64,000 bases of DNA, taken from contig NC_092671.1 in assembly GCF_964355755.1 (NCBI RefSeq), positions 14,694,001-14,758,000 on the forward strand, given 5' to 3'. Source of the stretch: Antedon mediterranea. Its lineage: Eukaryota; Animalia; Echinodermata. A program made the position numbers and the translations under genes. Position 1 is the first letter of the stretch. Every line of letters begins with the position of its first letter. Shown in pieces: positions 23,991 through 60,400 of this stretch. Below the pieces are notes generated by a model. That model ran no database searches. It saw only the letters and a list, made by a program, of their open reading frames with translations, and was not told the DNA's origin.

Positions 23991-30508
<6,518 letters not shown>

Positions 30509-34257: not shown

Positions 34258-37200
34258 CTACTTGCTATCATCATCACTATCTGAACTGCTACTACTAGAA
34301 TCTTCGGAGCTCTCACTATTACTAGACAATTCAGAAGTCTCAATGGCATCTCCAGAACTACTAGAATCTTCGGAGCTCTCACTATTACTGGACAATTCAG
34401 AAGTTTCAGTAACAACTCCAGAGCTACTAACATCTTCAGATCTCTCACTATTATTATTACTGGACAATTCAGAAGTCTCAGTAACAACTCCAGAGCTACT
34501 AGAAACTAAACACTCTCCAACATTGTTCAGGTGTTTTGCCACACCACTGAGTTCTGGTGTTAGCTCAATGTTGGAGTGAAGTAACTTCAGAACAGTGTGT
34601 TTATAAGTGTCTATTGCTTCTTCAGTTTCACCTGAATTCATGAGAGTTTCAACTGCTGTTCCGAATTCCTTAACACCATCAGTATTCAATAATTCTTCTT
34701 CTTCTGCTTCTGAAACTTCATGCAACGAATCACCCTAAATGATAAAATTAAATCTTTTTATATTCTTACATAACAGTGACATTTGGTATAAATGTGAATG
34801 TGCAATTGATTATAAAAAGTCTCTGCGTTTCGATTTGGTTGAGGTGATTTGAAACTTGGGTGGTTTTGTGAAACCAATCACCTTAGACTGCCACTTTATA
34901 ATCGCCTTGCCTGGAATTACTACAGAAGACAGTAAAAAAAAAACATCGAAACATTTCTAACTTGTTTTCCTTTTGGAAACATATGGTGTAACTCATTCCA
35001 TAGTGTTTACTGGTGTTTAACATGCAAACTTTTAAAAAAAGAAGAAAAACTATTTTTTCATTTTAAAGCAAATTCTATACCTGTCTTTTGTTTCTAGCCA
35101 GCACCTTTAGCATGTTTGTCTTTGATGGCTGTAGATCCCACATATAATGCTCCATATCATCAGGTGTGATATCATTCTCCCATGGTTCAGTCACCTATCA
35201 AATTAATGTTTTAAAAAGTAATACCGAAATACAATGAAAACATACCTACAGTTGGTGGAGAAGGGCATGTTAGATACATGAGATAATGGGCTTTTTAACA
35301 ATGAAACTTATTAACTAGCTGTAGAATTTTGTCTCGAACCAATGGCTTCTGAATACATTTAAACCACTGAGCTAGTGATTGTTTAGTACAGTATAATATC
35401 TTAGATTCTACTTACCCAAGACTCATGAAATAATACTGTAAGTAAATACAATGCATAGTCATAATTCTGTTTCCTCAGAGGGCATCTGAAATAGAATGAA
35501 AACATTTAATTACTATATGATTATGGCATCTTAACAATCTTTGACACATGTATTGGCTGATCCACTTAGTATAGCACATGTTTAATCTGTAATTACCTAT
35601 CTGTAGTAATTTTAACTGTGTTGGTTGCTTGATCATATCTTTCACCAACTAGCTGAATAAATTTCCACCGAGCATGTTCATCCAAAGGTATTGAGTCTAG
35701 ATTTACCTAAAAATATTTAAAACAAAGTACAGTTAGAACTGTAGCTTTTAAACCTAACGTAGGAACATCATGTAAATTTGTGATATTCATATATTATTGT
35801 TTACTGCTACATGAACTGGTTACCATGATAACCATACCCTGGGTGTTGTATGCCCGGCGTACACTCGTAAATTGTATTACCACCGCTGAAACTCTAGATC
35901 AGGCAGTGAAATGAAGCAGACATATTGAAGTTTAGTCTTGAGTCTTACAGCATGTTTTACATTCATTGATAACTGTTATTAAGTATGTTGATATAAAGTT
36001 TGCGGTACACCATGTACCGTATATTTCGGTGTATAAGTCGCACCTGTGTATAAGACGCACCCCCAACTGAGAGTAAAATATCGGTATTTTTTATATCGTC
36101 GATGTATAAGACGCACCTTATATTTCATCAAAAAAATGTTTTTTTAAATTGTAATCAATATTATTGTAATAATATATTTTGTTATATCTACAACGGCGTC
36201 CTTTATTTAGGTTTTTTCTTACCTAAGCTCGGCCGCGCCCAGCCTCAACAAGTTCTTTCTAACTTGTTATTCATGAGTTTCGCCGCAACATCGAGTGCAT
36301 GACCGTGTGTGTAACACGCACGTGTGTGGGCTAGCCTCGCTCGATCATTTCGAGAGGGCGCACGTTTTCACCGACAATCGTATTCGATTAGTATCTTTGT
36401 ATCCGAGAAGTGTGTACGCTAGGTCCATGCTATAATCACCTGGAGAATATACTAGTCGAATACCGTACACCATGTGCCACCAAAAGAAGGGCTTGCGCTT
36501 GGGGTACGGCGATCGTGCGTATAACTACTGTATAAATAAATACTATTCCAATCGTACGACGTAAACGTTTACAAATGAAATTTTATCGGAGCGCCATAAT
36601 GAACAAATCTTTTCATCATATTTAGTATAACATCATGCTAAAATGACTTGAAAACTAGGCCTAAGCAGAAGCAGGTTGCCGTTACGTTAGTTAGTTACTG
36701 TAGCTAGGCCTAGCCTACTCAGGCCTAGCAAACGAGGTGACGATAGCCTAGGCCTATGTATAATCTGTGTGGTGAGGCATTTATGTTCGGTGTATAAGAC
36801 GCACCCTTAATTTAGAGGTCAAATTTGCGTGTCAAAAGTGCGACTTATACACCGAAATATACGGTATATTAGTTCTGAAAAGAACCTCTCTCCTAAAGAC
36901 GATCGAAGCATATTGATCGAAACGTCGAGAAACTCAACAGTTCTTTTCAGAACTAATATACGTGGTGTACCGCAAACTTTATATCAACAATTGATTTCGC
37001 CATGCAAACCTTCAAACAATATATTATTAAATACTAATACCAAAGTACTACTACAAAATTCATTGTGCGCATGAAGGGACATTGGAACGTGGTAGATTAT
37101 ATGTCCGACCAGTGACACAATATGCTTAGGTTGTACATGTGGTTGCAAATCATCTTGAAGTACCTTAATTGAAACAATCCTGGCATCAGGATGTCTTAGT

Positions 37201-39725
37201 GAAGGTCCTGAGTGAACGTAGTCCGACAACTCAACTTCCAATGGAAACATCCTCTGACATAGTTCACTATCTTCTTTTAACTTCTCTGGCCACTGAGTAC
37301 ACAATTCTGTATAATAAATTTAAATTGATTTATTCAATATGCTCGTAAAAACTAATACGACAAAACAGAAAATGAGGATAACCCTGTAATTGTTAATAAT
37401 ACAATTAAGGTAGAACTCATACATAGAAACATCTGTATTTTTTGGGGTCCTAAATGGGTCCTCTTAATAGAGACACGTAGTAAACAAACCTGTTAAAATG
37501 AACTGAAAGTAAAACTGAAAAGTATGTTAATTTGTTTTGATTATCATATCAATCAACCAACCAATATTTATAAAAAAAAACACAAATAAATCATAGTTAT
37601 TTAAATCAATTAATTAATTTGAGATTACCTTTCAATGCCGCGCATTGCTTCTTGATCGCCGGAGGGGTAAGATGTAGAAAATTTGGAATCTAATATAAAA
37701 ATCAAAAGTTGACTGTACAATAAAGATCACATATAAAATCTACATAGAAAATAACAATGCATGAAAGAGGGACTGGAAATAAATAGAAAAAATGTGCTTA
37801 ATAAATTTGTTTACCTTTATTAGTTCAGCATTGCCATATTTGTGAGGTGGTATACCCCGTTTTACAGGATACCCCATTCTCAGTGGAAGAGGAACGGCTG
37901 ACCACTTGAAAGAGGCTGCAGTAGGGTACACATTTGACCAATCTTGGTCCTCTTGCATCCTTGACTCTCGAGGATCTGGCAACTTAAAATAATAGATTGA
38001 AAAATGAATCTTGCAGTTGATTGGATGTTTACTGCATGGTAACTTTTTATTTTATTGAATTGTTTTTAATATTCTGCTACCACATATTATTAACATAATT
38101 TATTACTTCAGATAAATAACTAAACACAAACTGCTGTCATTATACAGATTACAGTGATTTTAAGAGATTTAAACTTGAGAATATAAAGATCATATTAGAT
38201 ACTTACAGGACTTTTTCTACGCAGTCTCATATTTAATGCCCTCATGGCCTTGCCTCTTTGAGAATGATGCGAGGATCCTACATATAAGTTATAAAAGAAA
38301 CAATATTTTCTACAGGAAAAAATCAAATGTCATTTCATTGAATACAGTGTATTTACAAACAAACAACATTTCAAATATATATAGGCCATTTTATTCTAGG
38401 CATAAAAATCCCTCTATTATTTATAGCCTAGCCTATATAGATAGCCCATACAGGAGACCTAGCCTCCATAAATATCATGCATGTGTTATGCGCGATTTGA
38501 ACGATTTGCGCAATTTGAAATTGCGCAAAAAAAATCCTTGCGCAATTTGAATTGAAACATGTGTTTCAAATTGCGCAAGCAACGTATTAAATTGCGCAAG
38601 TAATCTGCAAATTGCGCAAGGTTTTTCGACAGATTGTGAAATCATGCACACCCATATTTTTATAGTAATTTCTAAGAATGATTCAAAATTAAAGATAAAT
38701 ATCGCATTTCCTTATTTTAGTAGTGCAAATATTGTTATAAGTTAGCATACCGTCGAAGAACGGACGAAGGAAAACGAAGCGGTGGTGTTCCACCAGACGG
38801 GCGCGGCGCGGGCGGCCGGCTATACTACTCTAGCCTAGCTAGGGTCTGGACTACTGATACTGACTAGGTTACATGGCCTAGCTTAAACTAATATTAAAAA
38901 CTTAAAAAGTGAGTATTAAACATTATCTTCATTGAAATGGTCTTATTTATATAATAAAATACTAAATTTTAAACTCCTCTGCCTAGGCCTAGCCTAGCCA
39001 TGTATGGGAAAATTTACAGTTCGTTTTCAAATTGCGCAAAGGTGTCATATTGCGCAAGAACTATCTTGCGCAATTTACAAATTGTGCAGCGCAATTTAAA
39101 ATTGCGCAAAGATTTTCTTGCGCAATTTGAAATTGCGCAAGTTGATTGCGCAATTTGAAATTGCGCAAGAATTCTTTGCGCAATTTCAAATTGCGCAAGG
39201 ATTTTTTTGCGCAATTTCAAATTGCGCAAATCGTTCAAATCGCGCATAACACATGCAGCCCTCACTCAGGCTCTACTACTAAACTATCTATTCTAGTAGG
39301 CCTACTATATAATAATTGCATTTTTTAAAAAAATATTACTGTGCCAAGAAAGTGATGTTTAGATCAGGACATAGATTTTTTAGAAAAATTTAAAGTTAAG
39401 CTTCTATCTAAGTAGTTATTGAAAAGGCTAAACCTAGGCCTACATAATTCATTTGCATGCGGCTGTCGGTTTTGAATCAACCTCCTCTGGCTGGGCCCAC
39501 ACACAATTTCAATGAATAGGCTAGCTCACCCATGCAGGGGAGCCTACAGAATAAAGTTTACTTACGATCAATTTCAGATTGCACATCAGGTAAAGAAGTT
39601 GAAACAAGCGAACCATAATGACATTGCCTTATCTGCTGATGGAAATTTAAAGAGCTTTTTCTACTACAAACATCTAATAAACCAGGATTTAATGACAGTT
39701 TGTAGAAGCAACGTGAAGCCGACAT
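34258..39725 (-). CDS. MRPS35: Mitochondrial small ribosomal subunit protein mS35, 9 exons, ~457 aa
   Basis: Exons (minus): 39725-39566, 38277-38207, 37982-37815, 37689-37629, 37306-37164, 35706-35597, 35485-35416, 35194-35081, 34734-34258 (1374 nt). Diagnostic blocks: [80 protein letters not shown]. The N-terminus resembles a mitochondrial presequence. Confidence 0.93.
35986..36989. mobile_element. Palindromic Penelope-like remnant with a decayed minimal hammerhead core, interrupted by a MITE
   Basis: Arms TGTTGATATAAAGTTTGCGGTACACCA[MITE]TATATTAGTTCTGAAAAGAAC / GTTCTTTTCAGAACTAATATACGTGGTGTACCGCAAACTTTATATCAACA. The loop carries TCTC-CTAAAGA-CGATC-N10-GATC-GAAAC-GTC-GAGA. Confidence 0.6.
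36017..36864. mobile_element. Tc1/mariner-superfamily (Tc2/pogo-like) MITE, 848 bp
   Basis: TA|CCGTATATTTCGGTGTATAAGTCGCAC ... GTGCGACTTATACACCGAAATATACGG|TA; perfect 27-bp TIR, TA duplication, subterminal GTATAAGACGCACC repeats, no transposase. Confidence 0.9.
38478..39257. mobile_element. Foldback-type MITE with long TIRs built of TTGCGCAA palindromes (MRPS35 intron 1)
   Basis: TGCATGTGTTATGCGCGATTTGAACGATTTGCGCAATTTGAAATTGCGCAAAAAAAATCCTTGCGCAATTTGA and its near-perfect reverse complement ending at 39257. No clear TSD. Confidence 0.8.
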
Positions 39726-40694: not shown

Positions 40695-41600
40695 TAAAGT
40701 GCACTGCGGAGAGAAGACAGCTAAAAAAGAGACGATAGTAGGTAGGTGTTGCTGAGGCAACTTGAAGCTAATATATCATACCAAATTGTCATAGTTCATA
40801 AAATTCGTAAAATAAATGTATAAAAAGAAAATATTGAGGATATCTGAAATTGAACTTTCTTTTGAATTGTTGTTAATATTGCTAATATGTATCTTCTAGG
40901 CCTAGACCTCTCTCCTATTACAATTATTGATTGACTCATCTATAACTACACACAGGCCCCACTACTGTTTTGTACTATTATTCTTTCTTTAAAAGCTGTA
41001 AGCTGTATAAAGACCAATATTTTAATAGTTTGATGTTTCTTTGCAGGTTTGACTTCAAATTTAAATAATGTTTTTTACTACAAATTTGGTAGTTTTCGTC
41101 TGCCTACTTGAGTATCTTGATGTTGTGCTCTTCATGTGAAAGTTGATGTCCAGAAAAGGCATCCAAAACATAGTAAGATCTAACAAATAAAACCAATTCA
41201 AACTAACATATATATATATAATTGCAAAATGTATATAATTTATATCTATATGTTAGTTTATGGTTTATTATTTTACAGGTATACTAACATATTAGAGTAA
41301 GTTTATTTTTTATTTTTATAGGTCGATGAACCAGAATTTCACCCCTTCACATCATCCACACACAAATACTATATAATATATTATATAATCTATATAATAT
41401 AAAATATGTATTTGTATGTATCCTTATGTTGTATCATGCATTGATATAGGTTTTGAATATGCCATGTTTACCTAATAATTTATTTATACTTCAAGTTGTC
41501 TTATATAATTTTTATATATATATATATTTATGCATTGTTCAATATCATTAAATAAGTAATTCTGAGTATGTATATACCTGTTTATATAACATATATTATA

Positions 41601-41760
41601 CAAATAATGAATGTTTATGAGTGCAATGGTACAAATAATGGCACGAGGTGAATGATGAAAGGTTATATCAACGAGGCAAAGCCGAGTTGATATAACCTTT
41701 CATCATTCACCAAGTGCCATTATTTGTACCATTACACGAATACAAAACATTCATTATTTG
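41601..41760. repeat. Long hairpin (~70-bp arms, perfect 26-bp inner stem), probably a palindromic non-autonomous element
   Basis: GGTGAATGATGAAAGGTTATATCAAC-GAGGCAAAGCCGA-GTTGATATAACCTTTCATCATTCACC, extended by outer paired blocks. Confidence 0.85.
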
Positions 41761-42579
41761 TTTTATATAACATCTAGACATTTTTTTTTCGTACACAAAA
41801 ATGTTTCAAAAAGTACTATTTAACGATCGTTGAATAGTGCGTACTATTGCACGCCATGTGACCCACATTCGTCCAATCAAATGACAGGAATTTATATAGG
41901 TGTTATATAAAGTATAATAATATACACATTATGTTATATATAACATTTTATATAATCTAATAAACTTTTTGCACAATAGGATAAATTTTGTTTTAGTTAC
42001 TAACACACACAAGAAGCCAAAAGAGAGAATATTCTTTGATTTTACTGATTATTATGCATGTTCTGATTTCATATACAAACAATATTTTGAATTATTATAA
42101 CTACATGTTGGTTTCACTGTTAAAGATGCTTTGTGGACACTAGCTTCACTCTATCTAGAGCAAACATCAATTGCAACCCACTTAGTGGAACATGCTTATA
42201 ATATTTTAACAGAAGATGAATTATTATTTAAATAATATTTATATTATGTTATTTGATTTTTACTAACTCTTTAGATAATGCATGATACAACACCCAGAGT
42301 GCAATCCCCTATTCCTTGCACACTGGTTTATTTCTAGCCCTATTTTTGTTTAAAGAAAACGGAAGCACAAAGGTAAGTTACTAACGCAGCAAGACATCGC
42401 TTCGAGCACCCAAGCTTCAAAACAAGTAAGATTTAGCTGCTAGGCTTGTTACTTAAGGTTTTGCCATGATGTTTAATGGTATCTTGTGGTATCAATTTGT
42501 AGTCTCTTGTTACTATCGTCCATGTCCTTTCATGTTCATGGTTTGCTCTAGTTGTTTTTTCGCAAGTTCGCTATCATTT

Positions 42580-43900
42580 TTTGGTAATTCACAGTTCATG
42601 TGAGCAGTATAGGTTGACAACCTACACTGCTAATGTGAACTGTGTTGTCTATATTATAATGCGCGGTTGTTTACTCGGATTATAAATAAATTTCAATATA
42701 AAAAATAGTCTTTGTGTCATTTTTCTTTCATATCATAACATAATTGGTAATTTTTCTCTATTTTTTGAATAAAATTTCAACAAAATGTTTCTGTGTCTTA
42801 TTTTTGTATTATAGAAAACATTCACAATACATTTAGGGAAAACAAATTTTCAATAAAGGTTGAAGATATTGTCTGTGTCTATTTATTTCGTTTCTTTGCA
42901 AGTACTCTATCATCTTCTGGTAATTCACAGTTCATGTAAACAATATAGGTTGACAACCTACACTGCTAATGTGAATTGTGTTGTCTATATAATGCGTGGT
43001 TGTTTACTCCGTAAACAACCACCACAAAATAAATAAATCGACATTTTTAAAATAGTCTTTATAGTCAACACTGCTCATGTGAACTGTGTTGTCTATATAC
43101 ATTAATGCATGGTTTGTTTACTGTGATCATAAATAAAAACAATTTTTAAAATAGACTTTTTCTCATTTTTTGTTCATATTATAATAACATGCCCTTTTTT
43201 TTCTAGTTTTCAAATAAAATGTCTTCAACACAAAATGTTTCTGTGTTTTATTTTGTATCTACTGAAAACATTCTCAATACATTTAGGAAAAAAGAAAAAA
43301 GGATCATTAAATTAAAATTTTAAAAATAGTCTTTGTCTCATTTTTTTCTTATCATTATAACATGCCCCTTTTTTCTCTAGTTTTCAAATAAAATTTTTAC
43401 ACAAAATGTTTCTGTGTCTTAATTTTGTCTCTTGGGAAAACTTTCACAATACATTTAGGAAAAAAGAATCATAAGTAAATTAACATTTAAAAAAATAGTC
43501 TTTGTCTCATTTTTTTTCATATCATTATAACATGCCATCTTTTTCTCTAGTTTAATAAAATGTCTTCAACACAAAATGTTTCTGTGTCTTATTATTGTCA
43601 CATACATTAAGGCAAAAAAGAAAAAAGTCATTTAAAATAAATATTGTCTATGTGTCTATTTATTTCATTATTTAAACAAAAAATCATAATCTTTTTACTA
43701 TCGTTTGTGTACTTTCATGTTCATGATTTTCAACAATATTAGTTAATTCACTGTTCATGTGAGCAGATAGATTGTATATATAATTCTGATTGAACATTTG
43801 TACATTCCAAGTTTAATTTGATCATAAATAAATTTAATAAAGTGTCCTTTTGTTTCACAACACATACCAATTTTCAAATAAATTTTCAACAAATAAAAAG
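42580..43900. repeat. Degenerate AT-rich tandem duplications (~170-180-bp unit, ~4-5 copies) with interspersed hairpin units
   Basis: AAAATAGTCTTTGTCTCATTTTT..ATAACATGCC..CAAAATGTTTCTGTGTCTTA..CACAATACATTTAGG recurs at ~42702, 43148, 43323 and 43492. Confidence 0.75.
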
Positions 43901-45108
43901 TTTCTGTATGTTTTTTTGCATTCACAATACAATTAATAAAATGGTGTCATAGGTCATAGGTCATAGGTCATTTTAAATAAATGTTGAATAAATGTTTTTG
44001 TGTCTATGTGTGGTATAGTTCCCTTTTTTTATAAAGTTATTCAAAGCAGGACATAATTGTGGTTGTTGTTAAATAAAATGGAACTAATTCATGTTTTGCT
44101 GTCTTATTTCGGTAGTAAATAATATAATAGAACAAACAAATTATTAATTCTTTTATTTCAACAATATTTATTGAAGCTGATTGTTGTCGGCAATGACTGC
44201 AAGCTTATTCCTATTCTACTAGATTGGGTCAATTTTGAATGATAATAAATTGAATAAATAAAATGTCTTTGTGTCAATTTATTTCTTGGTTTCAAAATTC
44301 ATTCACAATATCATTGAATTTACATCTTGTTCATAATAGAAAATTCCTGAATAGTTTGTTTCAAAAGAAAATAGAAAAAATATGGTTTTGTGTGTTTATT
44401 TTTAAGTAGAGTGAAATATTTCATTTAAATGGTATTAGCTTTTTTATGATTGATTTTTAATTTTCCCAATAAATTGTAAACAAAAACCAACATTTCTGGG
44501 TCGTGTATTTTATTTAATTTCATTGAAATACATTGTCTATGTGTCGCTAATATACAGATAATGCTCCTTGCGTAATAAGGTGATCTTTTTTTGTAAAATA
44601 ATTCTGTAAATACAGTTTTATTGTTACTAATTACTGTAAAAAAAATTGGAATACTAATATGGTTTGTGTGTCGTTTCATTTATTTTATTATAAATCGAGT
44701 CAAAACAATCATTAAATGGTTTGAAATTGTATTGTTTTATTTTTTTAAATAGTTTTGCATTTAAGTGGTCTTGGTTTTTGTAATTCATTTTTAACTTGAA
44801 AATTGTTGTGAAGTGTGTTGTTTATTTCCTTAAACTGTTTGATTACAAATAAAGTGTTCACAAATAAAATGTCTGTCTTTTTGTAATTAAAAACAATTTT
44901 ATAATATGTGAAAATTGTTAAATTTTAGTTGAAAATTCATTCATTGTGTAATGTTGTATTAACTTAAGTAAATGTAAATGAATAGCTGTAAACTGTTTTC
45001 TACATCAATAAATGATTATAGAGGACAGCGCTGACTATTAGATTTAAGTAGTTTAGGGTTTAAGTAAGTTAAAATATTACTCATACAAATTTAACTGTAA
45101 TTTTAATA

Positions 45109-48100
45109 ATTTGCTGTAATCATTTCAGAGCACATCTGGATGTACAGATACAAGACTGTCTGAACCAATTACAGGTAAAAAACACCATACAGTATGTACC
45201 TATGATTAATTTTAGTTTTTATATTTCTTTTCAGAGCTCACCTATGGATGTACAGATACAAGACTGTTGGAACCAATTACAGGTAAAAAACACCATACAG
45301 TATGCCTATGATTAATTTTTGTTTTTATCTTTCCTTTCAGAACACACTTATGAATGTACAGATACAAGACTGTTGGAACCAATTACAGGTAAAAAACACC
45401 ATACAGTATGCCTATGATTAATGTGTGTTTTTATATTTCTTTTCAGAGCACACTTATGGATGTACAGATACAAGACTGTTGGAACCAATTACAGGTAAAA
45501 AACACCATACAGTATGCCTATGATTAATGTGTGTTTTTATATTTCTTTTCAGAGCACACCTATGGATGTACAGATACAAGACTGTTGGAACCAATTGCAG
45601 GTAAAAAACACCATACAGTATGCCTATGATTAATGTGTGTTTTTATATTTCTTTTCAGAGCACACCTATGGATGTACAGATGTTGGAACCAATTACAGGT
45701 AAAAAACACCATACAGTATGCCTATGATTAATCAATAGGGTTGGTGAAATTCAGTCCAAAATATGCAGAATTTTTCCAAAATACGTCAAGTTGAGGGCGC
45801 TATACTAATCCAAAATACGCGAGTCTTTCCAAAATACGTCGACTTGGGGGCGCTATTCATTTTCCAAAATACGTGAATTGTCCAAAATACGTCAAGTTGA
45901 GGGCGCTAGTCATTTTCCAAAATACGCAATTTGTCCAAAATACGTCAATTTGGAACCGCTTGTAATTTTCCAAAATACGTCAACTTGAGAGCGCTATTCA
46001 TTTTCCAAAATACGCAATTTAAATAACTCCTTTACTTCTTCTAACCAATTAATTATTGATATTATTTTAATCACAATACCATATGCTTTTTATTATTATA
46101 TATTATATGAAATAATTATTATGTTAGATTTCAGATTAGGTAACTTATTAGACCATAAGTACTGTACATTAAATTGAAAGCGATGTTGGTCTGTCGAGCT
46201 CGGGAAAAATATCGATTTTGTAGATCACCAAATATATAACACATACCTATGACTATACTTAAATACTATATACGTACATGCTGGTTTTGTAGCCGGTTTA
46301 TGCCGCATTTAAACTAGCTACGTCTGGCAATGCAATCGTACATCGTTCAGACATTATTAACGTATATTATAGGCACTGTCTATTGACTGATGTTGGCACA
46401 TATTTGTTGTTTTTCAGTAATAAATGATTACATTGAAAAATAATAATTGGCTACTCTATGACATTTTATTTACAAAAAATTCTGCCTTCTAATACTTTCA
46501 TTTATAACTAAAATGTACTTGTTTGTTTTATTCCAAGAAACTTTTTTTGAATACATTAAACTGTAATTTTACCTTACACTCTCAATATGATACATTTGGA
46601 AAGGCTCTCGTATTTTGGAAAAAAAGTTTGCCGCCCTCAAGTTGACGTATTTTGGAAAATTACTAGCCGTCCCAAATTGCAAATTGACGTATTTTGGACA
46701 AATCGCGTATTTTGGAAATAAATAGCGCCCTCAATTTGACGTATTTTGGACAATTCATGTATTTGGGATGATTTATAGCGCCCTCAACTTGACGTATTTT
46801 GGACAATTCACGTATTTTGGAAAATGAATAGGGCCCTCAAGTCGACGTATTTTGGAAAGACTCGCGTATTTTGGATTAGTATAGCGCCCTCAACTTGACG
46901 TATTTTGGAAAAAATTCTGCGTATTTTGGACTGATGTTCACCAACCCGACAATGATTAATGTGTGTTTTTATATTTCTTTTCAGAGCTCACCTATGGATG
47001 TACAGATACAAGACTGTTGGAACCAATCACTGGTAAAAAACACCATACAGTATGTACCTATGATTAATGTGTGTTTTTATCTTTCTTTTCAGAGCTCACC
47101 TATGGATGTACAGATACAAGACTGTTGGAACCAATCACAGGTAAAAAACACCATACAGTATGCCTATGATTAATGTGTGTTTTTATATTTCTTTTCACAG
47201 AACACCTATGGATGTACAGATACAAGACTGTTGGAACCAATCACAGGTAAAAAACACCATACAGTATGCCTATGATTAATGTGTGTTTTTATATTTCTTT
47301 TCACAGAACACCTATGGATGTACAGATACAAGACTGTTGGAACCAATTACAGGTAAAAAACACCATACAGTATGCCTATGATTAATGTGTGTTTTTATCT
47401 TTCTTTTCAGAGCACACCTATGGATGTACAGATACAAGACTGTTGGAACCGATCACAGGTAAAAACACCATACAGTATGCCTATGATTAATGTGTGTTTT
47501 TATATTTCTTTTCAGAGCACACCTATGGATGTACAGATACAAGACTGTTGGAACCGATCACAGGTAAAAAACACCATACAGTATGCCTATGATTAATGTG
47601 TGTTTTTATATTTCTTTTCAGAGCACACCTATGGATGTACAGATACAAGACTGTTGGAACCGATCACAGGTAAAAAACACCATACAGTATGCCTATGATT
47701 AATGTGTGTTTTTATATTTCTTTTCAGAGCACACCTATGGATGTACAGATACAAGACTGTTGGAACCGATCACAGGTAAAAAACACCATACAGTATGCCT
47801 ATGATTAATGTGTGTTTTTATATTTCTTTTCAGAGCACACCTATGGATGTACAGATACAAGACTGTTGGAACCGATCACAGGTAAAAACACCATACAGTA
47901 TGCCTATGATTAATGTGTGTTTTTATATTTCTTTTCAGAGCACACCTATGGATGTACAGATACAAGACTGTTGGAACCAATTACAGGTAAAAAAAAACAC
48001 CATACAGTATGCCTATGATTAATGTGTGTTTTTATATTTCTTTTCACAGAACACCTATGGATGTACAGATACAAGACTGTTGGAACCAATCACAGGTAAA

Positions 48101-50530
48101 AAACACCATACAGTATGCCTATGATTAATGTGTGTTTTTATATTTCTTTTCACAGAACACCTATGGATGTACAGATACAAGACTGTTGGAACCAATTACA
48201 GGTAAAAAACACCATACAGTATGCCTATGATTAATGTGTGTTTTTATCTTTCTTTTCAGAGCACACCTATGGATGTACAGATACAAGACTGTTGGAACCG
48301 ATCACAGGTAAAAACACCATACAGTATGCCTATGATTAATGTGTGTTTTTATATTTCTTTTCAGAGCACACCTATGGATGTACAGATACAAGACTGTTGG
48401 AACCGATCACAGGTAAAAAACACCATACAGTATGCCTATGATTAATGTGTGTTTTTATATTTCTTTTCAGAGCACACCTATGGATGTACAGATACAAGAC
48501 TGTTGGAACCGATCACAGGTAAAAAACACCATACAGTATGCCTATGATTAATGTGTGTTTTTATATTTCTTTTCAGAGCACACCTATGGATGTACAGATA
48601 CAAGACTGTTGGAACCGATCACAGGTAAAAAACACCATACAGTATGCCTATGATTAATGTGTGTTTTTATATTTCTTTTCAGAGCACACCTATGGATGTA
48701 CAGATACAAGACTGTTGGAACCGATCACAGGTAAAAACACCATACAGTATGCCTATGATTAATGTGTGTTTTTATATTTCTTTTCAGAGCACACCTATGG
48801 ATGTACAGATACAAGACTGTTGGAACCGATTACAGGTAAAAACACCATACAGTATGTACCTATGATTAATGTGTGTTTTTATATTTCTTTTCAGAGCACA
48901 CCTATGGATGTACAGATACAAGACTGTTGGAACCAATTACAGGTAAAAAACACCATACAGTATGCCTATGATTAATGTGTGTTTTTATCTTTCTTTTCAG
49001 AGCACACCTATGGATGTACAGATACAAGACTGTTGGAACCGATCACAGGTAAAAACACCATACAGTATGCCTATGATTAATGTGTGTTTTTATATTTCTT
49101 TTCAGAGCACACCTATGGATGTACAGATACAAGACTGTTGGAACCGATCACAGGTAAAAAACACCATACAGTATGCCTATGATTAATGTGTGTTTTTATA
49201 TTTCTTTTCAGAGCACACCTATGGATGTACAGATACAAGATTGTTGGAACCAATTACAGGTAAAAAACACCATACAGTATGCCTATGATTAATGTGTGTT
49301 TTTATATTTCTTTTCAGAGCACACCTATGGATGTACAGATACAAGACTGTTGGAACCGATCACAGGTAAAAAACACCATACAGTATGCCTATGATTAATG
49401 TGTGTTTTTATATTTCTTTTCAGAGCACACCTATGGATGTACAGATACAAGACTGTTGGAACCAATCACAGGTAAAAAACACCATACAGTATGCCTATGA
49501 TTAATGTGTGTTTTTATATTTCTTTTCAGAGCACACCTATGGATGTACAGATACAAGACTGTTGGAACCGATCACAGGTAAAAAACACCATACAGTATGC
49601 CTATGATTAATGTGTGTTTTTATATTTCTTTTCAGAGCACACCTATGGATGTACAGATACAAGACTGTTGGAACCGATCACAGGTAAAAAACACCATACA
49701 GTATGCCTATGATTAATGTGTGTTTTTATATTTCTTTTCAGAGCACACCTATGGATGTACAGATACAAGACTGTTGGAACCAATCACAGGTAAAAAACAC
49801 CATACAGTATGCCTATGATTAATGTGTGTTTTTATATTTCTTTTCAGAGCACACCTATGGATGTACAGATACAAGACTGTTGGAACCGATCACAGGTAAA
49901 AAACACCATACAGTATGCCTATGATTAATGTGTGTTTTTATATTTCTTTTCAGAGCACACCTATGGATGTACAGATACAAGACTGTTGGAACCGATCACA
50001 GGTAAAAACACCATACAGTATGCCTATGATTAATGTGTGTTTTTATATTTCTTTTCAGAGCACACCTGTGGATGTACAGATACAAGACTGTTGGAACCGA
50101 TCACAGGTAAAAAACACCATACAGTATGCCTATGATTAATGTGTGTTTTTATATTTCTTTTCACAGAACACCTATGGATGTACAGATACAAGACTGTTGG
50201 AACCGATCACAGGTAAAAACACCATACAGTATGCCTATGATTAATGTGTGTTTTTATCTTTCTTTTCAGAGCACACCTATGGATGTACAGATACAAGACT
50301 GTTGGAACCGATCACAGGTAAAAAACACCATACAGTATGCCTATGATTAATGTGTGTTTTTATCTTTCTTTTCAGAGCACACCTATGGATGTACAGATAC
50401 AAGACTGTTGGAACCGATCACAGGTAAAAACACCATACAGTATGTAGCTGTGGTTAATTCTTTTTATCTTTCTTTTTAGAACACACCTATATAGAGATAA
50501 TAGACTTTTGGAACCAATCACATGTAAAAA
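45109..50530 (+). repeat. 106-bp tandem array, ~40 units (6 before and ~34 after the inserted transposon); unit = 48-nt exon-like + 58-nt intron-like
   Basis: Consensus ttttatatttcttttcag|AGCACACCTATGGATGTACAGATACAAGACTGTTGGAACCGATCACAG|gtaaaaaacaccatacagtatgcctatgattaatgtgtgt; the first and last units are diverged. Confidence 0.95.
45733..46951. mobile_element. Non-autonomous MULE/foldback-like DNA transposon with 9-bp TSD
   Basis: ATGATTAAT is duplicated at 45724-45732 and 46952-46960 (single in all other array units). Long TIRs start GGGTTGGTGAA..CAGTCCAAAATA, with subterminal CCAAAATACGTCAAGTTGAGGGCGCTA repeats. The outermost 4-5 nt mismatch. Confidence 0.88.
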
Positions 50531-51317
50531 CACAAATTATGTACCTATGAGTAAGACTAACCATATTATCACATGTACCATTAACTATTTATGACCATTA
50601 CTCTGTTCAGTTGTTGCTAATAAAGAATACCATAATGGTGGGATACTGTGAACAAATTAAAGCTAGCTACGTACTGGTACATTAAACATATTCGAATCTC
50701 ATATCTGTAATAATAATATTTATGAATGTAAATGACAAGAATAGATACAGTATTAAGAATAATACTACCAGGTACCATGTTGTTATTGTATATTTGCAAG
50801 ATCGATCGATTTTGCTAGTGGAGAAACATCCAAGAATTGCCAAAGGTAGAGTTTGTCAGTTGCAAAGAAATTGGTCTAAAAAACACATTTTTCGTACAAA
50901 TTTGCCATTCTAATATAGACTATTATGGATAAAGGAGAACTAGTATAAGACTTATGGTTTAGGAGGAGATAGAGGAACAAATTTTGGCTTAATGCTATTG
51001 TAATATAGATTAACCAAAATGATACCAAGGTAATTCATAAAATAGTATTGTATTGTATATTTCTAGTATTTACTGACATATTTAGAATATTTACCTACAG
51101 TAGCCATACTACTAATTGTCGCCGATACTTGAAAAGAAAACAATTATGTATTTCAATTATTTAAATATTCATTAGGTTATCTAGGTAATGAATGAATGAA
51201 TTTGATAACTTATATATAGTTAGCATTCCTCAACAAAAGAGCATATAAAGGTTATTTTTACATTATTTATTGTTAACTTTTTTTAAAACTCTTTAAAAAG
51301 TTCAAATATCTAAATTA

Positions 51318-51471: not shown

Positions 51472-54400
51472 ATGGCTACAGAAGAAATGCCGGAATCGGC
51501 CTACAGCATTCTGACGAACAGCATGTATTCATCAACAGAGATTGAGCATGAGCTTTTGTCCGGTAGAGATGACAGAAGTGATCTCTGCAGTAAGTTCCTT
51601 CCTGTCGTGTCTCTTGCTTGTCTGGTTGCGGTAGTAGGGCCTAGCCTTCTTAAGCCTAGCTTCATATGAAGTCTAGGCCTAAGGGCGCATTTATTTAATT
51701 ATATAGTATTTATTAAACCACAGTCTATCATAAAAATGATTTGCTGTTGTGATAATCTTTTGTTTGATAAATATAAAGGGAGCTTTTTAAAATTGTATTT
51801 ACTGATGAATAGAATAGGGCCTAGCTAGCCTAGGCCTAGCCTATATCTATCTAGGCTAGGCCTAGCCTACTACTACTAGTACGGTCGAAGCGGCCGCCAA
51901 CCAAAGCGGCCGCTAGTTCAATAACGGTAATTTGTATGGAACGCCGTGTGCGCTTTGACTGTCGTTGTTTTGTAATTTTTGATTGTCATTGTTTCGATCG
52001 ACAGGTTTTCTTTTTCTCGGACGTAAATAACATTTAACAACCTACATTATTAATATTATGTAATTTATTCTCTTTTTTTACAGATTGAATGTGATACATT
52101 ACGTTCTTTTAAACGAAATGGCGAATCGATGATTACTTACTTTAACTGTTTAATAAAGTCAATAAAATACATTGTGGTGTTTGTATTGTATATTAATATA
52201 ATATATAATAAGCCAATTATTAAGAATAATATATATATTTTTTCAATAAAGTATATCAAAATATATATATTTGTTATTGTATATTGAAAGTGTCTGTACG
52301 GTACGGTAATTAATTACGCAAATTTCTGCTAATAACTCGACTGGCGGCCGGCCAGGAATAGTGCTGTAGAAGGTCGTGTTTTCGTCTTCACGTTGCTTTA
52401 TTGAAAACACAAACAATGTATTACAATGGAATAACACTTAAATATATAAAATAACACACCCTATTACTAATCAATAAAAACAAGATTCGATAGTACAGTG
52501 TAAACGAGATATAAAAATTCGGCAATACCGTACGTAAATTATTATTGCAATACTGTATAAAGATTCGATGTAAATGAGATATAAAGATTCGGCAATACCG
52601 TACGTAAATTATTAATGCAATACTGTATGAAGATTTGATAGTATGTAAATGAGATATAAAGATTCGGCAATACTGTTACGTAAATTATTAATGCAATACT
52701 GTATAAAGATTCGATAGGAGAGTGCTCAAGAAACGTCGGGTCAGTTCAACGTTATTTTTCCCTTCACTGCCAATGTATTTAAAAAAAAAAAGAGATATAA
52801 ATAAACAAATAAATAGTACGTAAATGAGACATAAAGGTTCAATAGTATGTAGATTATGATGCAAACGTAAATTATTAATGATTCGATAGTATATGTAAAT
52901 ATATTTAGTTAGTTAATATTAAAATACAAATAAAATATACATTGATTTATCGGCAGGCAAAATTAGAAATATAAAGATTCGATAGTACATGATTTGGCTT
53001 ATATTTATTGGTTTGACCATACATACAGCTGTAACTCAACTCGCCATAGGCCATGGCGTTGACAACGACAATCAAAGATTAAAGCGCACATGGCGTTCCA
53101 TACAAATGACGATATTAAACTGGCGGCCGCTTCGACCATACTCCGTACTGTAGTAGGGTCTAGGTCTAGCTAGGAGGGATTTTGAAATTAGAATGATGGA
53201 TAGGAAAGCTAGGGCCTATGCCTCGCCTAGCTTTCTTCCGTCATATTTGTTTTCATCTCCGTTCTCTATTATAATTTTAAGTTATTAATATTTTATATAT
53301 ACCATTGTGCATTATTTAAAGATGTATTGTCCCTTGAAACACAAAAAATGAAAAAAAAAATATTCTAAATTTAAATTGGCCATATCAAAGTAATATTAAA
53401 GTTATTCACTTTAAGTTGAAAATTCGAGCCAAAAACAACAGTTTACGTAATTAACAGGTAAATTAATTAGATTACATTTCGTCTGAGAAATCGTCGCAAG
53501 CGAAAGTAAACAAAGATTTCAAACCATGAGTATGCATAATATGCATGATGCTAATTAGGATTGTTTACAACTCATCACCGTTGAGAAGGTGTTTTCACAC
53601 AGATCGCGAGGAAGTTTATGATTATGCATACAGAGTAGCCAAACAAGCGCATTGCATTATGGGATATGTTTTGATTGAAAACTTTGACTGAAAGTCAAAG
53701 TTATTTTTTGAACAAAAAAACATCTGTATTTCGGTAAAATTATTTTTTTTTTGACTAATTTTTGGTGAAAGTTAATAACTATTATGATACTTCAAAATGA
53801 CCCACTTTTTTTCGAAATTAAAAAAAAAAATTTTTTGTGGAATTAGTCAAAGGGACAATACATCTTTAATTGGTTATCCGCACTTGGCGGATAACCCCTT
53901 GTTATTGTCAGGATCTTTTTTTTTTTCTTTTTTTTTTTTTGGTTATCCGCACTTGGCGGATAACCTCTTGTTATTGTCAGGATCTTTTTTTTTTTTTTTT
54001 TTTTTTTTTTCGATATTCTTCTTTCTTTCCATGAATTTTGTTGCAAGCATATCTCTAATTCTGGCTAACAAATGACTGTATAACTTTGTCATAAGATTGC
54101 CCTGTAGCTGTAGATGTGCAAGAAACTTTTTTTTATGAATTTCGAGTCGCGCAGCGTAAGTTACGCGCGATTTTATGAATTTCAATGATTGATCATAGAT
54201 TAAAAACTAAAATTCATTTTGTATTGAAACTTGGTGAACATTTAAGTCATATAATGCGCAAACTTTCTATGGATTAAAAATGGCATGTTTTACAAAAAGT
54301 TACGCGCGCACGCGCGTTTAAAATTTCAAAATGCGAAAAATCAATATCTAATCAACTTTCTACGCGTTTCATGTCATTTTGAGCATTTAAAAAATTCCCA

Positions 54401-57400
54401 CGCGTGCGCAATTTTTTTACGCGCACGTGCGCACGTAGCGCAAAAACATCATTTTTTTGCTTGATTTTTGTTTTTCCTGTCTTTTTTAGAAAATTTACCA
54501 ACTTTCAAACAATTTCGACTTAAAATCACATCATACGAGCATGTAGAATTAAACAATTTACGCGCATTTTTGATGAAAAAGTTCAAAAATTAGTCAAAAT
54601 TATGCCTTTTTTTAAACAGTCATAAATTCTAAACTACGTGGTGAACTTTTTTATAATTACATATTCTGGTAGTAGATGAGTTGCAGATATCAAATCATGC
54701 ATCAATATGGCTAACCGGACATTGTGACGTCATCATATGGCTACTCGAATATAAAATATAGGATTTTTGTCTCTTTCCTCGTAGCTCGTCACACTTAATA
54801 TAGCGCATCTCCACTTATTTGTATTCCATTTCCCCCCATTTTTTTTTTTTTGTCTAGGTCTATCAATTATCTTTCGCACGATTCACCATTTTAAAAATTG
54901 TGATGACGTCATCATGTTCAAAAGCGTCAATAACTTTGGTCACTTATTTTCACCTATTCTGCACTGTATGTAGTACGTATACAGTATATAGTGTATACCG
55001 TATATACTCAGACGTGACGAAAAATAAAGAGCTTGCTGAAATTGTTTCAATTACTTAATCGTTTTTCTGCGCGCAATATTTTAACGTATGACGTGCACGT
55101 GGCCTTTGCGCTGCGGATAACCTAACTCGTCCGTAGTGACGAGTTCAAATCTAGTTAGTTATCCGCACTATGGCGGATAACTCCTTGTAACTGTCCTGTT
55201 TCATCATCTTTTTTTTTTTTTTTTTGGTTATCCGCAACGAAGTTGCAGGATAACCTCTTGTGATTGTACGAAATCATCAACATCAACTTTTTATTTCTCT
55301 TCTTTCTTTCTGTATGATTTTTGTGGAACGCTTTTCTCTAAAACTTGCAAACATAAAATTTTGTAACTTTTTCAACATATCGTCATGCACATGAAGATGT
55401 GCAGCGAAGCTTTTCATGATGTTTACAATTGCGCAACGTGACGTACGCGCGATTTAACGATTTTGTCGTATTTAACATAGCTCGACAACCAAATAACATT
55501 TCAACTTGAAACTTTGCAAAAGTTTAATTTATATCATGCGCTAACTTTCTGTTGAAAAAAAATTGCGTGTTTTACACAAAGTTACGCGCGCACGCGCATT
55601 TAAAATTTCAAAATGCGCAAAATTAATTTATAATCAACTTTCTACGCGTTTCATGTCGTTTTAAGCATGTCAAAAATTCCCACGCGTGCGCACATTTTTA
55701 CGTGTGCGGTGCGCACGTAGCATTCAAAATGTATTTTTTTCGCGTGATTTATAATTTTCCAGCCTTTTCTAGTAATTTTACCAAATTTTAAACAATTTCG
55801 ACTTAAAGATACGTCATACGAGCACGTCGAATTGGACAATTTTCGCGCGTTTTTTATGAAAAGGTTAAAAAATTCGTTTAAAATATGCCTTTTTTTAAAC
55901 AGTCGTAATTTCTAAACTAGACGGTCAACTTTTTGTGGATGACATATTCTGGAAGTAGATGAGTTATAGATATCGGATCAGGTATTAATATGGCTAACCG
56001 GATATTGTGACGTTATCGTATGGCCACGCGAATATAAAATTTACGATTTTTGTATCTTTCGTCATAGCTCATCACATTGAATAGAGCGCATCTCCACTTA
56101 TCCGTTTTCCATTTTCACCCCGATTTTGATATTGTCTAGGTCAATCAACTATCTTTCGAATGAGTTAAAAATATTTTAATTTTTTTGACGTCATCATGCC
56201 TAAAAATTTAAATCATGTGTGGCATTAATTTCATCTTTACTGTAAATTTTAATCTGTTATAGCTCGTAAGAATAAAATGTGATAATCACGATTAAAACTT
56301 TTTCTGGAAGCTATTGGATTGTAGATACGAAATTATGTTAAAATGTTGCCAATCGGATATGCGAAAGATAGTTGATTGACGTAGACAATATTACAATTTC
56401 GGGGGAAATGGAATACGTATAAGCGACATGCGCTTTGTTGAATGTGATGAGCAATAGCGAAACAGTAAAAAATCCAATATTTTACATTCGTGTGGCCATA
56501 CGATGACGTCATAACATCCGAGTGGTAAAGATTCTGCATGAATTCATATCTACAACATATCTGCTTACATATTAAATTAAAAAAATTGGGGGTAACGGTT
56601 GATCCTGAGGAGCTATAATAGATTAAAAATAGGCTTAATTTTGGCATTATGTTGTCACTTTTGCAACTAAAACGCGCGCAAATGGTGTAAATCAACGTGT
56701 TCGTATGACGTCATTTTAATTTGAAATGATGTCAATCTTTTTTAAAATAACTAGGAAAGACTGTCAAATCATAATTCAAGAGAAAAACACATGATTTTCG
56801 TGCTCCGTGCGCACCTTACGCGTAATTTTTTTCGCACGCGTGGGAATTTTTGACATGCTTAATGTTAATGTTGCACCACTTGCGCGGCGGATAACCAAAC
56901 TCGTCAAAGTGACGAGTTACATGTCTAGTTTTTTTTCTGTATTATTGGTTATCCGCAACGAAGTTGCAGGATAACCTCTTGTGATTGTACGAAATCATCA
57001 TCATCATCATCATCAACTTTTTATTCTTCTTCTTTCTTTCTGTATGATTTTTGTGTAACGCTTTTCTCTAAAACTCGCAAACATAACATTTCGGTAACTA
57101 TGTTAACATTTTGACATTTATGTAACGTCGTCAAGCGAAGCTTTTCGTGATGTTTACAATTGCGCAACGTGACGTACGCGCGATTTAACGATTTTCTCGT
57201 ATCTAACATATGTCGAAAACCAAATAACATTTTAAAGTGAAACTTTGCAAAAGTTTAATTTATATCATGCGCTAACTTTCTGTTGAAAAAAAATTGCGTG
57301 TTTTACACAAAGTTACGCGCGCACGCGTATTTAAAATTTCAAAATGCGCAAAATTAATTTATAATCAACTTTCTACGCGTTTTATGTCGTTTTAAGCATG

Positions 57401-60400
57401 TCAAAAATTCCCACGCGTGCGCACATTTTTACGTGTGCGGTGCGCACGTAGCATTGAAAACGTATTTTTTTCGCGTGATTTATGTTTTTCCAGCCTTTTC
57501 TAGCAATTTTACCAAATTTTAAACAATTTCGACTTAAAGATACGTCATACGAGCACGTCGAATTGGACAATTTGCGCGCGTTTTTTATGAAAAGGTTAAA
57601 AAATTCGTTTAAAATATGCCTTTTTTTAAACAGTCGTAATTTCTAAACTAGACGGTCAACTTGTTGTGGATGACATATTCTGGAAGTAGATGAGTTGTAG
57701 ATATCGGATCAGGTATTAATATGGCTAACCGGACATTGTGACGTCATCGTATGGCCACGCGAATATAAAATTTAGGATTTTTGTATCTTTCGTCATAACT
57801 CATCACATTGAATAGAGCGCATCTCCACCTATTCGTTTTCCATTTTCACCCTGATTTTGATATTGTCTAGGTCAATCAACTATCTTTCGCATGAGTTAAA
57901 AATATTTTAATTTTTTTGACGTCATCATGCCTAAAAATTTAAATCACGTGTGGCATCAATTTCATCTTTACAGTAAATTTTAATCTGTTATAGCTCGTAA
58001 GAATAAAATGTGATAATCACGATTAAAACTTTTTCTGGAAGCTATTGGATTGTAGATACGAAATTATGTAAAAATGTTGCCAATCGGATGTTGTGACGTC
58101 ATCATATGGCCAGTTAATGAAAAAGGTCGTATTTTCATCTTTTGCGTCATAATTCATTACATTTAAAAGAGCGCGCATCAATATTTCACGTATTCAAATT
58201 TCTTCTACACGCTAATACGTTGTTGCTGAGATAATTTCCTTTCGGAATTGCTACCTTCGCGTTTTATTTTAAAACCGTCAACATGTTAAAAATTGCAATA
58301 AATAGCAGGTCCCGTAATTTCACCTATTCTACACTGTATGTCACTGTATGTGATATGGATACAGAATATACTGTGTATACTATATATGAATTTAAATAAT
58401 AAAATTCAGCAATAACAACATATCATATTCTTCAGTTCAGATCATAATGCCAACGTGAACACTTCCTTTTGTCCTCAACCTATCCCCTTAATGTTAATGT
58501 TGCACCACTTGCGCGGCGGATAACCAAACTCGTCAAAGTGACGAGTTACATGTCTAGTTCTTCTTTCTTTCTGTCATTTTTGTGCAGAGCGTATCTCTAA
58601 AACGTGTAAAGTTAACATTTTATAACTTTGTCAACATATGGGCAATCACGTGAAGTTGTGCTTTCCTATAATTGAATGACGTCAGAGTTGCGCAACATGA
58701 CTTACGCGCGTTTTTATGAATTTCGCGTATTTAACATAGATCGAAAACCATATAACAATTTAAATTGAAACTTAGCAAAAGTCTAATTTATATCGTGCGC
58801 TAACTTTTTGTGCACTAAAAATGGCATGTTTTACACAAAGTTACGCGCGCACGCGCGTTTAAAATTTTCCATTGCGAAAAATCAATTTCTAATCAACTTT
58901 ATACGCGTTTCATGTCATTTTGAGCATGTCAAAAATTCCCACACGTGCGCAAATTTTTACGCGCGTGGTGCACACGTAGCGTTAAAAACGTCATTTTTTC
59001 GAGTGATTTATGTTTTTCCAGCCTTTTCTAGTAATTTTACCAACTTTTAAATAATTTCGACTTCTAATTACGTCATACGAGCACGTAGAATATGATAATT
59101 TGCGAGCTTTTTTGATGAAAAACTTCAAAAATTCGTCAAAAGTAAGCCTTTTTTTAAACAATCGTAGTTTCTAAACTAAACGGTAAAAATTATTTTTATT
59201 ACATATTCTGGAAGTTGATGAGTTGTAGATATCAGATCATGCATTAATATGGCTAACCGGACATTGTGACGTCATCGTATGGCCACGCGAATATGAAATT
59301 TAGGATTTTTGTATCTTTCGTCATAACTCCTCACATTTAATAGAGGGCATCTCCACTTATCCGTTTTCCATTTTCACCCCGATTTTGATATTGTCTAGGT
59401 CAATCAACTATATTTAGCATGAGTTAAAAATATTTTAATTTTTATGACGTCATCATGCCTAAAAATTTAAATTACGTGTGGCATTAATTTCATCTTTACA
59501 GTAAATTTCAATCTGTTATAGCTCGTAAGAATAAAATGTGATAATCACGATTAAAACGTTTTCTTGAAGCTATTGGATTGTAGATACAAAATCATGTAAA
59601 AATTTTGCCAATCGGATGTGGTTACGTCATCATATGGCCAGTTAAATAAAAAAAGTCGTATTTTCATTTTTTGCGTCATAGTTCATTACATTTAAAAGAG
59701 CGCGCATTAATATTTTACGTATTCAAATTTCTTCTACACGTTAATATGTTGTTGCTGAGATAATTTCCTTCCAAAATTTCTACCTTCGCGTTTCATTTTA
59801 AAACCATCAACATGTTAAAAATTGCAATAAATAGCGGGTCCCGTAATTTCCCCTATTCTACACTGTATGTGATATGTATACATATTACACTGTGTATACT
59901 ATATATGAATCAAAATAATAGAATTCAGCAATAACAACATATCATAGTCTTCAGTTCAGGTCATAATGCCATAATCTTTTTCCGTGTGCAATATTCCAAC
60001 GTATGGCGTGGACGTGGCGTTTGTCGTGCGGATAACTAACTCGTCAAAGTGACGAGTTTCATGTCTAGTTGGTTATCCGCACTTGGCGGATAACCTCTTG
60101 TTATTGTCAGGATCTTTTTTTTTCTCTTTCTCTTTTTTCTTCTATTTTCTTCTTTCTTTCCACGATTTTTGTTCGCAGCGTATCTCTAATTCTGGCCAAC
60201 ATATGATTGTATAACTTTGTCAAAAGATAGCCCTGTAGCTGTAGATGTGCAAGAAACTTTTTTTTTCGAATTTCGAGTTGCGCAGCGTAAGTTACGCGCA
60301 ATTTTATGAATTTCAATGATTGATCATAGAATAAAAACTAAAAGTCATTTTGTATTGAAACTTGGTGAAAATTTAAGTCATAACATGCTCAAACTTTCTA

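What the first reader, a model, noticed from the sequence alone, without database searches (positions are those of the whole stretch)
45109..50530. A satellite whose monomer is a complete splicing cassette (~40 x 48-nt exon + 58-nt intron)
Seen: almost every 106-bp unit has a pyrimidine tract ending TTTTCAG, a 48-nt block (multiple of 3) ending CAG, a GTAAAA donor and a TTAAT branch-like motif ~25 nt before the next AG. Concatenated consensus exons are stop-free in all three frames, whereas unspliced ORFs terminate. Length polymorphism is mostly in the intronic A-run. Inference: this is an amplified exon-intron unit able to give a variable-length repeat mRNA or protein. The donor-to-branch distance is only ~32 nt, so adjacent exons may be sterically unable to join. 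That would force skipping and combinatorial isoforms.
Basis: partly seen in the sequence, partly recalled or inferred. Interest (0 to 1): 0.85.

Follow-up and report, generated by a model that had tools for sequence, protein, structure and literature searches.

The report
Feather-star minisatellite shaped like exon-intron
A feather-star genome carries 40 near-identical 106-base repeats that each look like a tiny exon plus a tiny intron; it is likely a copied-out piece of a non-coding transcript whose internal introns would be too short to splice, a tolerated repeat of a kind known from lancelets and humans rather than a source of new proteins.

Summary
32 of 40 units read AG|48 nt|GT. Acceptor and donor score like real local sites, and only 3 of 1,099 background 106-mers match both, so an exon-intron origin is likely; but 40 copies are one event. 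Against a repeat protein or isoform generator: the intron-like part is 56-61 nt versus 111 nt or more in all 28 mapped neighbouring introns; donor-to-branch distance is about 32 nt; 8 units break frame; 26 of 32 blocks give one peptide; no homolog was found; the proposed upstream exon is closed in all frames; and a sister variant seen in sequencing contigs keeps both signals around a 41-nt block. Splicing could not be tested: no run on record as RNA. Best reading: a 'mirage'-like splice-signal minisatellite in a probable divergent non-coding transcript, mostly skipped or retained. The scan noted similar repeats in other genomes. Ordinary kind; modest interest.

The parts
45129..45732 (+). First block of the array, units 1-6 (unit 1 block 46 nt, unit 6 block 40 nt; most diverged units)
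45733..46951 (.). 1,219-bp non-autonomous element with about 240-bp terminal inverted repeats made of 53-bp subrepeats, inserted in the intron-like part of unit 6; 9-bp target duplication at 45724-45732 and 46952-46960 that duplicates the TTAAT motif. Mutator-like by TSD length (recalled rule, not tested)
46952..50530 (+). Second block, units 7-40; mean pairwise identity 98.1% among the 22 units of exactly 106 nt; an 8-unit higher-order duplication (units 9-16 versus 17-24: 843 of 845 aligned bases identical)
47516..47563 (+). Representative exon-like block, 48 nt, GC 46%, preceded by a pyrimidine tract ending CAG, ends CAG
47564..47621 (+). Representative intron-like part, 58 nt, GC 28%: GTAAAA donor, TTAAT at 30-34, pyrimidine tract, CAG
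50480..50624 (+). Unit 40: strong acceptor (9.3 bits), weak donor (3.3), AATAAA at 50619; could be a terminal exon (inferred; AATAAA lies in 31% of 200-nt stretches)
40742..42378 (+).
   Evidence: prediction only
34258..39725 (-). MRPS35 coding region (9 exons), neighbour; identifies the organism

Best explanation
This is a 40-copy, 106-bp minisatellite that likely arose by copying a small exon plus its intron from a probably non-coding transcript, and whose internal 58-nt introns would be too short to splice, so the copies would mostly be skipped or retained rather than joined into a repeat protein. Shown: unit anatomy, copy number, homogeneity with diverged ends, an 8-unit block duplication, a transposon insertion, a sister variant with the same signals. 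Inferred: amplification by unequal crossing-over; a host transcript running away from the MRPS35 promoter (from strong + strand splice sites at 40.7-42.4 kb); splicing from an early donor straight to a late acceptor such as unit 40, or retention of the array; no selected function for the individual copies.
For: Exon-intron look beyond chance for one monomer; 0 of 6 other window repeats of period 65 or more carry both sites at this level. Internal introns 56-61 nt against 111-2,434 nt in 28 of 28 mapped introns of MRPS35, TBC1D15 and RAB21; donor-to-branch about 32 nt against about 50 nt needed in human extracts, assembly abolished at 35 nt (PMC6692369 passages). Frame not protected: 8 of 40 units off a multiple of three, and the only long open path through all 40 blocks hops between the three frames. 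A sister variant spans acceptor, 41-nt block and donor in one 169-nt contig and appears in loose ends of X1, X2 and X4. No protein relative. Concerted-evolution signature: 98% identity inside, diverged ends, block duplication, as described for lancelet mirages (PMC3087553 passages). Upstream + strand cluster: 2 acceptors of 13 bits or more in 1.8 kb against 0 in 20.5 kb of antisense background.
Against: 6 of 10 variant sites are synonymous in one frame (P = 0.055 for that frame, 0.084 for best of three), and unit 1's 46-nt length would lead a phase-0 entry into that same frame (a 117-codon path from an ATG in 41048-41172 exists on paper, but through a 3.3-bit donor). All three frames open is itself uncommon (2-5%). 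Both signals survive in the sister while its intron middle differs, which could mean they are used. Humans do splice a few introns of 37-65 nt (PMC4463651 abstract), 28 local introns are a small sample, and the steric limit is a human figure. The host transcript is predicted, not observed.
Confidence: 0.6

Rival explanations
1. Ordinary untranscribed minisatellite whose splice-like motifs are coincidence or a dead relic; nothing is spliced because nothing is transcribed.
For: 40 copies are one event; at lenient thresholds 114 of 1,099 background 106-mers carry a compatible acceptor and donor; a genome holds many minisatellites and this one was chosen for its look. No host gene is known; no Rfam family at gathering score; the monomer folds no better than shuffles.
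Against: At the array's own scores only 3 of 1,099 pass, one a real exon; GC contrast matches real exons and introns; strong upstream + strand sites; sister keeps both signals.
Confidence: 0.2
2. One reading: a spliced repeat RNA in which adjacent blocks cannot join, so the spliceosome takes every second or later block (donor-to-branch 138 nt or more) and makes a ladder of RNAs differing by 48 nt, with a role as a variable-length RNA or peptide.
For: Both sites score like real ones; skip-one distance 138 nt clears the steric limit; most blocks are a multiple of three and open in all frames.
Against: Blocks are near-identical, so products differ only in length; no start or signal-bearing exon leads in; known repeats of splice signals leave the extra sites silent (PMC3087553, PMC3902484 passages; PMC1557585 abstract); the insertion adds an acceptor and AATAAA (46418, 46419) after unit 6.
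Confidence: 0.12
3. A true repeat-protein gene in which every 58-nt intron is removed, as in Schistosoma SmPoMuc or Tetrahymena 90-bp-exon genes, giving (EHTYGCTDTRLLEPIT)n from phase-1 exons.
For: Synonymous lean in that frame (6 of 10; P about 0.06-0.08); that frame is open across the 32 regular blocks; earlier, unreviewed notes report other one-repeat-per-exon arrays in this genome.
Against: Units 6, 9, 10, 17, 18, 37 break the frame: a phase-0 start stops at codon 109 and the long open path reads that frame in only 3 of 40 units; 41-nt sister; introns half the shortest local intron; no homolog: phmmer gave 5 hits, 4 that look like CRISPR-array translations (my reading) and 1 unrelated repeat.
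Confidence: 0.08

Closest known systems
Amphioxus 'mirage' minisatellites (Adh3, TnC, globins BflGb6/BflGb9, PGBD5); PMC3087553 and PMC3902484, passages read; the original Adh3 paper not seen
   Same: Tandem copies (10-160 bp there, 106 bp here) carrying AG/GT signals; homogenised middle, diverged ends; invertebrate deuterostome.
   Different: Mirages sit at a boundary of a known gene and were shown not to disturb its mRNA; here the unit holds a full acceptor-block-donor set, copy number is 40 rather than 3-6 (BflGb6), and neither host gene nor mRNA is known.
Human F7 IVS7 37-bp VNTR; PMC1557585, abstract read
   Same: Repeated identical donor sites that are intact in sequence; only the first is used.
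   Different: Donor only, in a protein-coding gene, with experimental proof of silence.
Schistosoma mansoni SmPoMuc exon-2 repeats; PMC2576457, passages read
   Same: Exon plus intron amplified in tandem, more than 94% identical, up to about 20 copies, variable repeat number in transcripts.
   Different: 1-kb units with ordinary introns, proven cDNAs and a 15-exon protein gene; here 58-nt introns, no host ORF.
Tetrahymena 90-bp-exon LRR arrays; PMC6564038, passages read
   Same: Clonal exon-intron units of fixed length and phase expanded by unequal crossing-over.
   Different: Known domain, strict frame, diversified exons, introns at or above that genome's normal size.

Membership tests
Mirage / splice-boundary minisatellite | Head-to-tail repeat of minisatellite size with concerted evolution and diverged ends | tested here: met
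Mirage / splice-boundary minisatellite | Unit contains splice signals resembling real sites | tested here: met
Mirage / splice-boundary minisatellite | Lies at an exon-intron boundary of an identified host gene | tested here: inconclusive
   Strong upstream + strand sites, but no ORF, homolog or transcript identifies a host
Mirage / splice-boundary minisatellite | Extra sites are not used in the mature RNA | tested here: inconclusive
   no run on record as RNA, contigs only
Mirage / splice-boundary minisatellite | Copy number varies between alleles or cells | not testable with these tools
   No second haplotype or genome held
Repeat-exon protein gene (SmPoMuc, Tetrahymena LRR type) | Exon length keeps frame in all units | tested here: not met
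   32 of 40; 41-nt sister
Repeat-exon protein gene (SmPoMuc, Tetrahymena LRR type) | In-frame coding entry exon and coherent ORF | tested here: not met
   upstream exon closed; only path uses a 3.3-bit donor and stops at the unit 7/8 joint
Repeat-exon protein gene (SmPoMuc, Tetrahymena LRR type) | Introns within the organism's normal size range | tested here: not met
   56-61 nt versus 111 nt or more in 28 of 28 local introns; genome-wide minimum not measured
Repeat-exon protein gene (SmPoMuc, Tetrahymena LRR type) | Spliced cDNAs with repeated exons | tested here: inconclusive
Tandem structured small-RNA genes (snoRNA, SL RNA, miRNA) | Rfam match or stable fold of the unit | tested here: not met

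The most novel reading that the evidence does not exclude
A divergent transcript from the MRPS35 promoter runs through 40 complete mini-cassettes whose introns sit below the steric limit, so the spliceosome is forced to take non-adjacent blocks and yields a 48-nt ladder of RNAs (or, alternatively, crinoids splice 58-nt introns with a 32-nt donor-to-branch span); a family of such arrays with different block lengths (48, 41) exists in the genome. It would be a natural ruler for splice-site choice among identical competing exons.
Probability: 0.12. Interest if true: 0.7.

Novelty: new member of a known kind. Interest (0 to 1): 0.27.

Why it matters
If the best reading holds it matters little: one more splice-signal minisatellite, here with a full cassette per unit and a transposon inside, useful as an example of how exon arrays are born and decay in a genome where other exon arrays appear to be functional. 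If junction reads between blocks turn up, it becomes a clean natural test of the minimal donor-to-branch distance outside vertebrates and of how a spliceosome chooses among 40 near-identical exons.

Tried and rejected
No whole genome is held, so dispersal of the monomer could not be mapped. Sequencing runs: no RNA holder listed; 5 rows, 2 studies, X1 only guessed to be RNA at share 0.19. Laid on 42255-45730 (3 of the 5 runs): no joint skipping 57-61 nt in any run; X1 (9 records laid, 8 pieces shown) has no cover on 42275-42372, on 42719-45154 or on the array's own intron-like part, and its four array-matching records run across the donor unspliced and are of the sister type; since X1 may be DNA, contigs drop rare forms and short junction contigs may be missed, this says nothing firm about splicing. 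Only units 1-6 were laid; the upstream sites at 40.7-41.3 kb and the array's 3' end were not covered by any lay. Protein searches: frame-0 stretch 46985-47170 against longer proteins, 0 of 22 candidates; 33-residue unspliced stretch holding the frame-2 block, 5 hits, none related; Pfam, nothing at cut-off for 3 proteins; the spliced peptide and frame 1 were not searched. Metagenome scans with a 32-nt and a 20-nt core: 0 and 0. Rfam: 0 at gathering for the window, 3 sub-threshold miRNA hits outside the array. Folding z-scores 0.35, 0.49, -0.59, -1.01. No other monomer copy in the window. One search used RAB21 boundaries that were off by one and is superseded; its numbers are not used. A possible 'unit 0' (45022-45063, donor 45064 at 6.8 bits, 65-nt intron) is closed in all frames and has a weak acceptor: left open. 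Paper searches for crinoid intron sizes or crinoid repeat RNAs gave nothing useful (listings only); one search returned 0; PMC2812944 passages concern other repeat types. Xenopus FIM-B.1 repeat exons are recalled only; one search did not list the primary paper. No supplements were read.
Full report
Setting. An exon at 37815-37979 is 100% identical to MRPS35 of the feather star Antedon mediterranea and a second stretch to its TBC1D15. Both proteins map exactly onto the minus strand with GT..AG introns, and RAB21 (name from my reading of the translation) reads as a 224-codon stop-free chain on the plus strand. The array lies 5.4 kb upstream of the MRPS35 start codon, in sequence with no identified protein gene. 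No whole genome was available.

The observation. TRF gives two 106-bp blocks, 45123-45732 and 46952-50530, 40 units in all. Between them is a 1,219-bp element with long inverted ends and a 9-bp target duplication, inserted in the intron-like part of unit 6. 32 of 40 units read AG|48 nt|GT. Unit 1 gives 46 nt, unit 6 40 nt, five units have the acceptor shifted by 2 nt (46 nt; the shifted site scores 11.3 bits, so it would be usable), and unit 40 gives 44 nt with a weak donor. Interior units are 98.1% identical (22 units of exactly 106 nt compared), units 9-16 and 17-24 form a block duplication, and the ends are most diverged: the pattern of unequal crossing-over (established knowledge).

Is the splice-like anatomy more than chance? 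I trained donor and acceptor matrices on the 28 introns mapped in the window. The array's donor beats 15 of 28 and its acceptor 19 of 28 real sites; 3 of 1,099 background 106-mers carry both in a compatible layout, one of them a real exon; none of the 3 has a length divisible by three. At the 25th percentile of real sites, 114 of 1,099 pass, 42 with a multiple of three and 1 with all frames open. GC is 46% in the block and 28% in the spacer, against 38.7% in 20 real internal exons and 26.8% in real introns under 200 nt. None of 6 other repeats in the window has both sites at this level. So one ancestral exon-intron unit is the likely origin. The test is small, concerns a single monomer, and does not correct for the monomer having been picked for its appearance.

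Is there a host transcript? The plus strand at 40.7-42.5 kb holds 2 acceptors of 13 bits or more (0 in 20.5 kb of antisense background) and 2 donors of 9.5 or more (4 in 20.5 kb), which suggests a spliced transcript diverging from the MRPS35 promoter. Unit 40, with a good acceptor, a decayed donor and AATAAA 139 nt on, could be its last exon, but AATAAA occurs in 31% of 200-nt stretches. All of this is prediction.

Would the units be spliced? Their introns are 56-61 nt; the 28 local introns are 111-2,434 nt. The putative branch A is about 32 nt from the donor; human spliceosomes need about 50 nt and fail at 35 (PMC6692369, passages), although some human introns of 37-65 nt are spliced (PMC4463651, abstract). 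RNA evidence could not settle it (see Tried and rejected).

Is it a protein or an isoform generator? For: 6 of 10 variant sites are synonymous in one frame (P 0.055; 0.084 for best of three), and three open frames are uncommon (2-5%). Against: with all 40 blocks joined, the phase-0 path stops at codon 109, and the one long open path changes frame five times and uses the favoured frame in 3 of 40 units. 26 of 32 regular blocks encode the same peptide in that frame, so any skipping changes length, not content; this contrasts with the hypervariable one-repeat exons that earlier unreviewed notes report in this genome. No homolog was found.

A sister variant. Laying three runs on 42255-45730 showed contigs that match the last 28-40 nt of the block and the first 10 nt of the spacer but continue differently. 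One 169-nt contig in X1 spans a pyrimidine tract ending CAG, a 41-nt block and the donor; loose ends with the same upstream or downstream letters occur in X2, and a related acceptor in X2 and X4. So a related repeat exists as DNA outside this window (paralog or other allele, not resolved). It keeps both signals while the spacer differs, which fits an exon-intron origin and possibly use of the sites, but 41 is not a multiple of three, which undercuts the frame argument. X2 and X4 cover 43-45 kb evenly like DNA runs and show much higher summed depth on the array, in line with many copies; the A5 variant is present in X4, so it is not only an assembly slip.

Known systems. Lancelet 'mirages' are minisatellites of exon-intron boundaries, many copies with AG/GT signals, that do not disturb the mRNA (PMC3087553, PMC3902484; passages); the human F7 IVS7 repeat keeps its extra donors silent (PMC1557585; abstract). 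At the other pole, SmPoMuc and Tetrahymena arrays are amplified exon-intron units that are spliced and translated (PMC2576457, PMC6564038; passages). This array works most like the first group; formal membership is inconclusive because host gene and mRNA are unknown, and it fails three tested features of the second. Earlier notes of this scan describe five similar repeats in other genomes; none matches this sequence. I did not find a paper on this repeat, which is a limited search.

Verdict. Observation confirmed with corrections; interpretation partly supported. Best reading (0.6): splice-signal minisatellite from an exon-intron unit of a probably non-coding transcript, internal introns unused. 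Inert repeat 0.2; forced-skipping ladder 0.12; fully spliced repeat protein 0.08. New member of a known kind; interest 0.27.

Noticed in passing
window 45733-46951: Inverted-repeat element with 9-bp target duplication inside the array; carries an acceptor (46418, 8.4 bits) with AATAAA right behind it, which could end a + strand transcript after unit 6.
   Followed up: partly
window 42255-45191: In run X4 a contig on 42255-42346 has depth 45.7 and one on 43647-45191 has 22.8: the stretch before the array may be present on one haplotype only. The A5 variant has depth 247.9, about 11 times 22.8, against 10 A5 units in the window. The tool warns that depth is no copy number.
   Followed up: no
   Followed up: partly
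window 42700-45000: Degenerate AT-rich repeats of about 170 bp (TRF 43141-43599) with related copies elsewhere in the DNA runs.
   Followed up: no
window 41616-41742: Near-perfect hairpin (62-nt arms, 3-nt loop) with three sub-threshold Rfam miRNA hits; probably a small palindromic element.
   Followed up: partly
window 38478-39257: Element with perfect 56-nt terminal inverted repeats and 15/31-bp subrepeats in MRPS35 intron 1.
   Followed up: no
window 53800-63600 and 12800-13950: Cluster of several diverged copies of a roughly 1.2-kb dispersed repeat, one inverted, with another copy near 13 kb (read by eye; inverted arms).
   Followed up: no
window 34291-34504: 66-bp coding repeat giving MRPS35 a Ser/Glu-rich C-terminal tail; the Antedon protein is 457 aa against 398 aa in Anneissia.
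   Followed up: partly
window 14870-30510: TBC1D15 (minus) and RAB21 (plus) lie head to head, as I recall they do in humans.
   Followed up: partly
window 8615-9153: Purine-rich 65-bp minisatellite, about 8 copies, no splice-like layout.
   Followed up: partly
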